Assembly: GCA_963772365.1 (NCBI GenBank)
Contig: CAVYXA010000001.1
Location: 992,001 to 1,056,000 of the forward strand
Origin: an uncultured Verrucomicrobiae bacterium
Lineage (GTDB): Bacteria > Verrucomicrobiota > Verrucomicrobiia > Chthoniobacterales > UBA10450
DNA: 64,000 bases
Reading direction: 5' to 3'
Shown here: piece by piece, positions 30,001-33,000 of the stretch
How positions within the stretch are numbered: the first letter of the stretch is position 1
How the letters are laid out: each line of letters opens with the position of its first letter
Made by a program: the position numbers

Positions 30001-33000
30001 CGCTTTGGTTTCGGCACGCTAGACCGTTGCACGAATCACCGTGAACGAACAATTAAAAATCAAACTGACCCACTACCGGATCCCGTGGCATTGCGGTACA
30101 TTTCGCAACGGAATGTCTCGCTTTCGCTCGACATGATGGCGTTGCTACTCATGCGAACTGCCTCAAAAAACGCAGATCGTTCTGCGCGAACAGCCGGATA
30201 TCGGGAATATCGAACAGGATCATGGCCAGCCGATCCATGCCCAGCCCAAAAGCGAAACCGGTCCATTTTTCCGGATCGTACGCATCATCGCTGCGCGCTT
30301 TGTTGACTTGTTCGAATACTTCGGGATGGACCATTCCCGAGCCGGCTACTTCGATCCATTGTTCACCGCTCTTAAGCGCCTTCGATTTCACATAGATTTC
30401 CAAGCTCGGTTCGGTAAAGGGAAAATAGTGCGGACGAAATTGAACGGCCGTGTCCGGTCCGAAAAGCTCACGCATGAAAAACTCGAGCGTGCCTTTCAAA
30501 TCCGCTACGCTGACATTTTCATCGACGTAAAGTCCCTCGATTTGGTGAAACTGCGCGCTGTGCGTGGCATCGACTTCGTCACGCCGATAAGCTGCGCCGG
30601 GGGCGATCACCCGAATCGGCGGCGGAGCAGATTCCATGGTCCGGATTTGAACAGTCGAAGTATGCGTTCGTAAAAGCCGGCCATCGGGAAGATAAAATGT
30701 GTCCTGCTCATTACGCGCAGGATGTTCGGGAGGCGTGTTCAGTGCTTCGAAGCAATGCCATTCCGTTTCGATGTCCGGTCCGTCGGCCAGCGCGAATCCC
30801 ATTCGCCGAAAAATCTGAATGGAACGGTCGAGCATTTGCGTGAGCGGATGCAAGCTGCCGATCTCATGCGGCGTGCCGGGTAATGAGATGTCGATCTTCG
30901 AGAGAGTCTGGGCTTCCTGCTGCGTTTGAAAACTTTTGGCTCGCTGTTCGAGAGCCGCACCGACGGCGGTGCGCGCTTCATTCAACAATTTCCCAACAAT
31001 CGGACGCTCTTCTTTGACGAGCGATTTCATTTGCTCGCCCCAGGCAGAAATGCTGCCGGATTTGCCGAGATATTTTACCCGTGCAGCTTCTAGCGCTTTT
31101 TCATCGGCCGACTCGTCGATTTCACGCAGGGCCTCGTCGCGAAGTTGTTCCAGCGAATGCATGAACTGTGAATCGTTAAATCGCCACATCGTTACATCGA
31201 AAAATCGATTCACGATTCTCGATGTAACGAATCACGCCGCTTTTTTCTTTGACTTCGACTTGTCTTCCAGCGCGGCCTTCGCTTGATCGACAATTGATTT
31301 GAACGCCGCTTCGTCGGTCACGGCCAGATCGGCGAGGATCTTGCGATCCAGCCCGATACCTGCGGCTTTCAGTCCTTCAGCAAATCGGCTGTAAGTCATT
31401 CCATTGGCGCGGGCAGCCGCGTTTAATCGTTGAATCCAAAGATAACGGAACGTTCGCTTGCGCGTTTTACGGTCGCGATATGCCCAATACTGGGCTTTCA
31501 TCGTCGCGTCTTTGGCGTAGCGGAAAAGTTTGGAACGGCGTCCGCGGTAGCCTTTGGCTTTTTTCAGAATGCGTTTGCGTCGCGCCCGGCTGGCCGGCGC
31601 GTTAGTGGCTCTTGGCATTTGTGTTTCGTCTCCGCTCTCGCGAAAGACTCCTCGTTCAGCGGGCTGTTGTTACATTGTCGATCCTTCCGACCTCGCTCGC
31701 TGATTCATCCGGCAGCTGCCGGACAGGTGGAAAGATTTGAGCGAGGAAGGTAGAGAACAAACCACAAATGACAACCGAATTGTCGTTCCGCCCTAATTGC
31801 TCCGGGATGGTCTTTTGATGGCGACGCCTTCCTGCTCCAAGCGCGATCGCAGCTCACGAGCAAATTCCACCGCCTCGGGATTATCGCCGTGCAGGCAGAT
31901 CGTTTCCGCGCGAACATCGCCATCCGGTCCCTCAACGCTGCGCACTTTTCCCTCGCGTAGCATTCGCAGGACCCGCGGCGCGGCTTCTTTGGCATCGTGA
32001 AGCAATGCATCCGGCCGGGAGCGCGAGACCAGCCAGCCGTTGGCGAGATAATTCCGATCCGCAAAAACCTCATAAGCGATTTGCAAGCCGTGAACCAGCC
32101 CTGCGCGCGCCATTGCGCTTTTGTCTGGCGCAAACAGAATCAATTTCGGATCGACAGATTTCGTAGCGCGGACGATTGCGTCCGCCAACTTCTCATCGCG
32201 GACCGCCATGTTATACAGCGCGCCATGCGCCTTCACATGATTGACCTCGACTCCGGCGGCGGTTGCGATCGCTTGAAACACGCCGAGCTGATAAACGACT
32301 GCGTCGAAAACTTCCTCGGGACTAACGTTCAACTCTTTGCGTCCGAAGTTTTCGCGGTCGAAAAAACTTGGATGCGCACCGACGGCGACACCGTGTGCTT
32401 TCGCCGCCATGACAGCAGCGTGCATGGTATCGGCGTCGCCGGCGTGAAAACCAGTTGCCACGTTTGCCGAGCTGATCAGCTCGAAGAGTTCCTCATCGTG
32501 TCCCGCGCCTTCGCCGAGATCGGCATTGAGATCGACATGCAAACTCATAAAGGGCGCAGGCTGAGCCCGACTCGAAACCGTTCCAGTTCGCGTTCTCTCT
32601 TGATCAGCAATCCGTGCGATTCTGCGAGAGAGATCTCGCGAAACGTGACTTTATCGCCGCCCCGAAGCTGCGCAGCCTGAGGAAGATCGACAGTGATCAC
32701 GTGCGCGATTTTGGGATAACCGCCGATCGTTTGGCAATCTCCAAGCAACAGAATTGGTTTTCCGCTCGGCGGCACCTGGATTGTGCCCGGCGCCACCGCT
32801 TCGGAAATAAGATCGACATCGTCCTTACGCTTCAATTCCACTCCGTCCAATCTTGCGCCCATTCGATCGGACTCTGTCGTAACTGTGAAAGCCTGATTCG
32901 TGAATCGTTGCATCGTTGCATCGTTGCATCGGAACCAATCTGCGCCACGAATGAAACGCAAATTCGGTGTGGTCCGTGCCGGACTCACCCATTCATGCGG

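What a model noticed while it worked through the whole genome (the two positions that open the first line are those of the whole stretch)
31618..31775. Pseudoknotted L20-type leader RNA in front of rplT, which has left the infC-rpmI-rplT operon
infC, rpmI and rplT lie at three separate places. rplT has its own promoter and a 115-nt leader with an 8-bp long-range pseudoknot, a bulged helix with invariant GAG, and an AAC motif, ending at the ribosome-binding site: a new ribosomal leader scaffold, likely bound by L20, conserved across Chthoniobacterales.
Evidence so far: Three genes apart here and in 5 of 5 family genomes; infC never next to rplT in 31 order genomes. Alignment of 24 leaders: all 8 pseudoknot pairs have two-sided changes, 90.6% cells paired; 0 of 500 shuffles reach the score; slid controls 0.11-0.25 vs 0.68. 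No Rfam hit up to E 5. The 20 leaders of Eckert and Weinberg include none from Verrucomicrobia (PMC7247131, passages, call 97).
(Added by a program. Inside this text positions count along the whole contig: contig position 992,001 is position 1 of the stretch shown here. "Call 12" and the like, gene names such as g00115 and contig names such as C1 are that model's own, and its searches are not shown. The text may have been shortened before it was handed on; [...] marks where a part breaks off. The agent that wrote the report below was given it as the finding of a first reader that could run no searches.)

Follow-up and report, generated by a model that had tools for sequence, protein, structure and literature searches.

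The report
Knotted RNA before L20 gene
A small knotted RNA sits just before the gene for ribosomal protein L20 in two large groups of soil, water and gut bacteria, including Akkermansia, and most likely lets surplus L20 switch off its own production; this fold seems undescribed, and binding is untested.

Summary
The RNA is real and wider than reported. Window 31736-31619 (minus strand) folds as helix P1, a variable hairpin, an 8-bp pseudoknot and an A-rich linker ending AAC(A), with a near-invariant CU/GAG junction; pairs covary in 87 leaders and in 46 held-out ones. A model finds one copy per genome in 123 of 150 Chthoniobacterales (all abutting the rplT start) and 102 of 121 Verrucomicrobiales, Akkermansia included; none in other orders sampled. 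Correction: it is not a product of the operon split. In 94 of 94 loci outside this family rpmI lies directly upstream, so the RNA is normally intercistronic; only this family moved rplT away, and the RNA went with rplT under a new promoter. No terminator follows. The pseudoknot ends 1-3 nt before a Shine-Dalgarno that a hairpin separates from the AUG. Best reading (0.7): an L20-bound translational operator on a scaffold unlike known L20 leaders. It keeps an AA dimer but not the two conserved G-C pairs of those leaders. No Rfam hit, no paper found, and no earlier finding of this scan. Verdict: new variant of a known kind.

The parts
31769..31774 (-). predicted -35 hexamer TTGTCA of the rplT promoter (family-specific)
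   Evidence: best site in each of 16 family loci has a 16-nt spacer in 15, TTGTCA in 9; not found by the generic scan
31747..31752 (-). predicted -10 hexamer TACCTT, 128 nt before the AUG
   Evidence: inferred, no start-site data
31725..31736 (-). P1 5' strand, ending in the conserved C-U
   Evidence: C in 85 of 87, U in 79 of 87; P1 pairs in held-out set 84.5%
31707..31724 (-). P2, hairpin of variable length and sequence
   Evidence: 6 of 6 pairs with two-sided changes, 75.6% paired
31695..31703 (-). pseudoknot 5' strand
31694..31694 (-). unpaired junction G of GAG, opposite the last A of AACA (possible G-A pair, inferred)
   Evidence: G in 87 of 87; opposite base A in 75, G in 9
31681..31693 (-). 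P1 3' strand, starting with the A-G of GAG
31665..31680 (-). A-rich linker ending in AACA (31668-31665)
   Evidence: AA in 87 of 87, C in 86 of 87; AAC in 46 of 46; partly by selection
31656..31664 (-). pseudoknot 3' strand
31648..31653 (-). Shine-Dalgarno-like GAGGAG, 2 nt after the pseudoknot
   Evidence: the genome's 16S keeps the CCUCCU anti-SD
31628..31648 (-). P3 hairpin between the SD and the start codon; no U-tract follows
31232..31618 (-). rplT, ribosomal protein L20 (128 aa)
   Evidence: TIGR01032 E 1.5e-45
30149..31213 (-). pheS, 18 nt after rplT, probably co-transcribed here
   Evidence: TIGR00468
31793..32548 (-). pxpA (5-oxoprolinase subunit A), upstream neighbour in place of rpmI; not part of the element

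Best explanation
An autoregulatory translational operator for ribosomal protein L20. Shown by comparison: the RNA forms P1, P2 and an 8-bp pseudoknot whose 3' strand ends about 15-16 unpaired bases before the rplT start codon; it is single-copy, always in front of rplT, and has no terminator. Inferred: P1 and the pseudoknot helix stack at the conserved CU/GAG junction and the AAC(A) linker docks there, giving a surface like the L20 site at 23S helices 40-41. When L20 exceeds free rRNA it binds and locks the pseudoknot, which then blocks or traps the 30S subunit at the adjacent ribosome-binding site. In most Chthoniobacterales that site is split: the SD lies 1-3 nt after the pseudoknot and a hairpin is looped out to bring it to normal spacing from the AUG. 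Ancestrally the RNA is intercistronic (rpmI is nearly leaderless and so has no room for a 5' operator); in this family rplT moved with the RNA and gained a promoter.
For: Position: 123 of 123 order hits end at the rplT start codon (one search compared, by eye); 57 of 57 fetched Verrucomicrobiales hits lie between rpmI and rplT (57 of the 102 hits fetched). It followed rplT, not rpmI or infC, in 38 of 41 family genomes (36 of 38 without the unpublished G476, G479, G485). In G197 (L20 identical to a protein named Akkermansia muciniphila) rplT is followed by a hairpin with a U-run and no pheS; RNA contigs of 4 studies cover rpmI-RNA-rplT and stop at 2256-2267 (weak). No U-tract after P3 in 77 of 77. 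SD-to-AUG distance is 22 nt or more linear but 7-12 nt with P3 looped out in 78 of 79. L20 is a proven autoregulator in E. coli and B. subtilis by rRNA mimicry (PMC1888825, PMC1865079, passages), and a candidate L20 leader in Deltaproteobacteria has the same position. The junction has the topology of the rRNA site: one continuous strand, one strand ending in U, one strand starting after AA (helix assignment recalled).
Against: No binding or expression test. The two consecutive G-C pairs named for L20 leaders (PMC7247131) are not conserved: only one C-G is invariant, the next pair is C-G in 52 of 87 and unpaired in 13 of 46. AAC-type A-rich loops also stabilise pseudoknots generally (recalled), so they do not prove mimicry. 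Only about 8 conserved bases carry the rRNA comparison, which is easy to over-read. Families f6 and f15 also have a nearly leaderless rpmI yet no element. A nested folding program cannot show P1 and the pseudoknot together (0.91 for the knot helix, 0.07 for P1).
Confidence: 0.7

Rival explanations
1. A constitutive translation-initiation or mRNA-stability structure: it restarts translation of rplT after an uncoupled, nearly leaderless rpmI, or protects a processed 5' end, without feedback by L20.
For: Gaps of about 116-190 nt rule out simple coupling where the RNA is present, and f6 has gaps of 27-76 nt without it; many Verrucomicrobiales copies have no SD-like word (13 of 70 have one); fixed distance to the AUG (median 15-16 nt).
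Against: Single copy per genome, only at rplT; a general enhancer would be expected at other genes. Conserved unpaired bases at a helix junction suggest a ligand.
Confidence: 0.13
2. An operator read by another ribosomal protein or complex (L35, L21, L13, or L20 with L21).
For: The canonical G-C pair feature of L20 leaders is not met; ligands of r-leaders are often not the next gene (PMC7247131 supplement 1).
Against: The RNA stayed with rplT when rpmI was separated; in G197 rplT is the only gene downstream; L20 is the ligand in both proven cases.
Confidence: 0.1
3. A riboswitch or tRNA/PheRS-linked element controlling rplT-pheST.
For: Pseudoknot with conserved junction bases beside the RBS; pheS follows rplT in most long order loci.
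Against: No pheS after rplT in the Akkermansia-type loci; few conserved bases; never seen before metabolic genes; no Rfam match.
Confidence: 0.05
4. Artefact of alignment or of relatedness.
For: Single-sequence fold z -1.66; parse scores overlap shuffled scores; anchors and model select for the motif.
Against: A parse nearly blind to sequence lands on the same register in 85 of 88; P1, left out of the model, pairs at 84.5% with 5 of 7 pairs covarying in 46 held-out copies; one genome per family (20 families) pairs at 0.90 against 0.69 (max 0.79) when strands are swapped between families.
Confidence: 0.02

Closest known systems
L20-Deltaproteobacteria r-leader candidate (Eckert and Weinberg 2020, PMC7247131)
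   Same: Same position, between rpmI and rplT; ends just before the rplT SD; has a C-U/A-G step in its stem and an optional 3' hairpin (supplement 4).
   Different: A plain imperfect hairpin with the AA inside the 5' strand; no pseudoknot, no inserted P2, no AAC linker; its hairpin lies before the SD, here P3 lies between SD and AUG; different phylum. Shared ancestry cannot be decided.
E. coli rpmI operator, L20 sites 1 and 2 (PMC1888825, PMC3616713, PMC10931766)
   Same: Translational control proposed through a pseudoknot beside the initiation site; mimicry of 23S helices 40-41.
   Different: Lies in infC and the infC-rpmI gap, represses rpmI with rplT coupled; long-range pairing into a coding region; two sites. 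Here one compact local fold directly before rplT, and infC is unlinked.
B. subtilis L20 leader, Rfam RF00558 (PMC1865079, PMC3849166)
   Same: L20 recognition at a two-helix junction with a conserved AA just before one helix.
   Different: Transcription attenuator upstream of infC with a terminator; no pseudoknot. RF00558 does not match here.
HMP2_39 (Alistipes) and HMP2_3043 (Treponema) candidates (PMC8040213)
   Same: Candidate structured RNAs directly upstream of L20 genes.
   Different: 49 and 57 nt, other phyla; none of the 11 table rows shown with Ribosomal_L20 is Verrucomicrobia and none of the 6 Akkermansiaceae rows shows L20 (long cells are cut). Their structures were not seen.

Membership tests
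ribosomal protein leader (r-leader), as a kind | conserved structure, supported by covariation, immediately 5' of an r-protein gene | tested here: met
ribosomal protein leader (r-leader), as a kind | binds an r-protein and represses expression | not testable with these tools
   no RNA-protein assay or RNA-protein structure tool
L20-binding leaders (rRNA mimics) | conserved AA dimer next to a helix | tested here: met
   AA in 87 of 87 and 46 of 46; partly selected for; followed by C and usually A before the helix, unlike rRNA
L20-binding leaders (rRNA mimics) | two consecutive conserved G-C pairs (PMC7247131) | tested here: not met
   one invariant C-G; neighbour C-G in 52 of 87, mismatch in 13 of 46; first pseudoknot pairs are G-C in 62 and 89 of 163
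L20-binding leaders (rRNA mimics) | interhelical junction like 23S H40-H41 | tested here: inconclusive
   topology and several bases can be mapped on the genome's own 23S segment, in two different ways; no 3D test
Rfam RF00558 L20_leader | model score above 58.7 bits; upstream of infC; terminator | tested here: not met
   best genome hit 20.2 bits, elsewhere; no infC in 110 of 110 loci, no U-tract in 77 of 77
L20-Deltaproteobacteria motif | single imperfect hairpin with GAAC and GAUC strands | tested here: not met
   compared by eye with two parts of the published alignment and its structure line; whether this family is in the Rfam copy searched was not confirmed
L20-Deltaproteobacteria motif | position between rpmI and rplT | tested here: met
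   94 of 94 order loci outside the family have rpmI upstream; 57 of 57 Verrucomicrobiales; not in the window's own family
E. coli rpmI operator | long-range pseudoknot from infC coding sequence to the rpmI initiation region | tested here: not met

The most novel reading that the evidence does not exclude
The pseudoknot rebuilds, from three separate strands, the internal loop of 23S helix 40 (rRNA 5'-CUAAG-3'/5'-CGAAG-3'; here CU plus AR opposite YGAG) rather than the G-C-pair site copied by known L20 leaders. L20 would then be caught through another part of its rRNA footprint, and the locked knot would gate a split ribosome-binding site in which a hairpin must stay folded for initiation. With the different Opitutales-type hairpin at the same spot, one bacterial class would hold two independent L20 mimics.
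Probability: 0.3. Interest if true: 0.65.

Novelty: new variant of a known kind. Interest (0 to 1): 0.5.

Why it matters
It adds what appears to be the first ribosomal leader candidate for Verrucomicrobia (within the searches named), on a fold unlike the L20 leaders compared. It is conserved over two orders and present in a culturable gut species, so it is directly testable. It gives a natural experiment on how often and in what ways an mRNA can mimic one rRNA site, since it lacks one of the two features thought to define L20 mimics. The conserved split SD-hairpin-AUG is a clear case for testing initiation across a folded hairpin. It also shows a cis element travelling with its gene through an operon break, which points to its target. 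It remains one more member of a well-known regulatory class, not a new principle.

Tried and rejected
Rfam scans of the window and of 23 related loci gave only weak unrelated hits, none at the element's gathering level. Three recalled accessions for the Deltaproteobacteria L20 family were wrong, so that comparison rests on the published alignment. The generic promoter scan found nothing. The raw score of my descriptor parse overlaps shuffled scores and is not used as evidence. Transcription attenuation rejected: no U-tract in 77 of 77. A link to pheST rejected on the Akkermansia-type loci. A link to the operon split rejected. No raw RNA reads were offered; contigs cannot give start sites or levels, and no silent stretch was laid as a DNA control. 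No paper giving L20-rRNA contacts base by base was found, so the base-level mapping is partly recalled. Searches of this scan's notes found nothing on this RNA. A first pair count on the Opitutales-type alignment was mis-registered and redone. Rows dropped: 22 of 110 loci failed the anchored parse (several carry the motif by eye, and f6, f15, G032, G120 do not); L029 was left out of A1 for a long insertion; 18 of 181 genomes were not anchored.

Full report
Setting. The finding is the gap before rplT (31232-31618, minus; TIGR01032), with pxpA upstream and pheS downstream. In this genome infC, rpmI and rplT lie hundreds of kilobases apart. No Rfam family matches 29000-35000 up to E 10. On the minus strand the gap reads: TTGTCA, 16 nt, TACCTT; P1 5' strand ending CU; hairpin P2; a 9-nt strand; G; P1 3' strand starting AG; an A-rich linker ending AACA; the partner of the 9-nt strand; GAGGAG; hairpin P3; 9 A-rich bases; AUG. 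The 9-nt strands cross P1, so this is a compact pseudoknot. The single sequence folds no better than chance (z -1.66).

Comparative test. rplT was found in 147 of 151 order genomes. I examined 110 loci: the 30 best-scoring plus 80 picked to cover all 16 families. A parse that asked only for one G and two crossing helices, and a second parse with sequence anchors, agreed on the register in 85 of the 88 loci that the second parse accepted; the raw parse score overlaps shuffles and is not evidence. A structure-blind alignment of 87 of the 88 gave two-sided changes at 9 of 9 pseudoknot pairs (93% paired), 6 of 6 P2 pairs and 3 of 4 top P1 pairs; score 0.647, 0 of 500 shuffles, slid controls 0.08-0.25. 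To limit relatedness, one genome per family over 20 families pairs at 0.90 at positions 3-8, against 0.69 (max 0.79) with strands swapped between families; position 9 pairs in only 57%, so the helix is 8 bp (163 of 181 genomes anchored). Conserved bases are few: C-G and U-A at the top of P1, the junction G, and AAC followed mostly by A; these counts are partly selected by anchors and model.

Range. A model from 57 leaders (47 from this order, 10 from outside; pseudoknot helix and P2 only) hits this genome once, at window 31616-31740. It hits 123 of 150 order genomes, once each; all 123 end 4 nt before the L20 Pfam match (compared by eye). It is not found in f6 (0 of 15), f15 (0 of 3), f3 (0 of 1, though the parse finds it there) or the two 0.9-Mb genomes of f10, where it looks decayed (L20 of G024 is named Ca. 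Xiphinematobacter). It hits 102 of 121 genomes of the order of G197 at E up to 0.05; the L20 proteins of G197 and G248 are identical to entries named Akkermansia muciniphila and Phragmitibacter flavus, so I call this order Verrucomicrobiales. I fetched 57 of the 102, the weakest included, and all 57 lie between rpmI and rplT. In 46 held-out copies P1, which the model does not contain, pairs at 84.5% with 5 of 7 pairs changing on both sides. Class and phylum samples gave 25 of 121 and 19 of 150, none outside these two orders (strict filters).

rpmI lies directly upstream of rplT in 94 of 94 order loci outside the family and 0 of 16 inside; infC is in none of the 110 (101 had at least 1 kb upstream). 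In 41 family genomes the RNA is found in 38 and is never beside rpmI or infC by position (these counts include unpublished G476, G479, G485; 36 of 38 without them). So the RNA is older than the split and moved with rplT. The family has a promoter-like site before it (16-nt spacer in 15 of 16; my scorer always returns a site, the evidence is the shared spacer and hexamers). In the two orders a similar site ends 5-12 nt before the rpmI AUG in 94 of 119 loci and 13-15 nt in 9 more, so rpmI is nearly leaderless, which would explain an operator placed before rplT; f6 and f15 share this trait without the RNA. In G197 a hairpin with a U-run follows rplT and pheS does not; contigs from RNA runs of 4 studies cover rpmI, the RNA and rplT and stop at 2256-2267 (a weak hint, no DNA control).

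Mechanism. No U-tract follows P3 in 77 of 77, so attenuation is unlikely. In 81 of 93 Chthoniobacterales copies a hairpin lies before the AUG; 79 of these have an SD-like word just after the pseudoknot (mostly 1-3 nt), at least 22 nt (median 27) from the AUG, but 7-12 nt with the hairpin looped out in 78 of 79. Verrucomicrobiales have no hairpin (0 of 70), an SD-like word in 13 of 70, and the same unpaired distance from knot to AUG (median 15 against 16). The 16S anti-SD is intact here. The knot thus sits at the 5' edge of the initiation region. I infer that L20 locks it and blocks or traps the 30S subunit.

Mimicry. The genome's 23S segment reads CAGCAGCUAAGGUGCCCAAAUACCG and CGGUAUACCGAAGCUCUG, nearly the same in G197; its assignment to helices 40-41 is recalled. 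Papers place L20 at the helix 40-41 junction with two conserved As (PMC1865079, passages) and name two consecutive G-C pairs plus an AA dimer (PMC7247131, passage). The RNA keeps the AA and the junction topology but only one invariant C-G. A second mapping puts its conserved bases on the helix 40 internal loop (CUAAG opposite CGAAG); that L20 touches this loop is recalled, and no paper with the contacts was found. Mimicry is therefore suggestive only.

Literature seen. PMC7247131: passages, and supplements 1-4 searched (no Verrucomicrobia; files 2 and 3 are cut; two parts of the Deltaproteobacteria alignment read). PMC1888825: passages and section 22. PMC1865079, PMC3849166, PMC3616713, PMC10931766, PMC6097659: passages. 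PMC8040213: passages and table rows; files 7 and 8 not searched. PMC11109978, PMC8632094, PMC5737381: term searches of the main text with no hit for L20, rplT, Akkermansia or Verrucomicrobia; the supplement of PMC11109978 could not be read, one file of PMC8632094 had no hit, that of PMC5737381 was not searched. Nine library searches (listings only) showed no description of this RNA. Unread supplements and subscription journals could hold it.

Verdict. Real, conserved over two orders, apparently undescribed; works like an r-leader, probably for L20 (0.7); not a member of RF00558, the E. coli operator or the Deltaproteobacteria motif. New variant of a known kind; interest 0.5.

Noticed in passing
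L174-L179, L181-L184, L189, L159, L160, L150 (rpmI-rplT gaps of class families f29, f31, f39, f24, f21; L184's L20 is named Horticoccus luteus): A different conserved hairpin at the same position: GGGURA opposite G(G/C)CGACCC, with invariant G-C pairs, closer to the rRNA GGU/ACC plus AA site. 14 sequences, 82.7% paired, score 0.32, 0 of 500 shuffles. No relevant Rfam hit in the two loci scanned. A likely second undescribed L20 leader.
   Followed up: partly
L161-L164, L204 (family f25, rpmI-rplT gap): A third conserved hairpin, GAGGC paired with GCCUC, directly before an AAGGAAAGGA ribosome-binding site.
   Followed up: no
rpmI upstream regions, e.g. L002 and L121:1440-1480: rpmI is nearly leaderless in both orders, behind promoters with a 16-nt spacer (94 of 119 within 5-12 nt); several other families have the site about 30-35 nt upstream.
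   Followed up: partly
window 27239-29859: pheS and pheT are separated by about 3 kb holding an IS1-like transposase (27860-28681), a P63C-domain protein (28777-29859) and a DUF6680 protein (27239-27850).
   Followed up: partly
G000:C1:1128315-1129879 and C1:1565628-1568501: The 16S and 23S rRNA genes are unlinked, about 436 kb apart and on opposite strands.
   Followed up: no
L084, L085 (G009, G024): In the two 0.9-Mb genomes the element looks decayed: pseudoknot-like strands remain but GAG and AAC are changed.
   Followed up: no
L115-L126, L235-L275 and most f1 loci: An extra GC-rich hairpin lies just 5' of P1 in many Verrucomicrobiales and family copies; absent in the window's copy.
   Followed up: no
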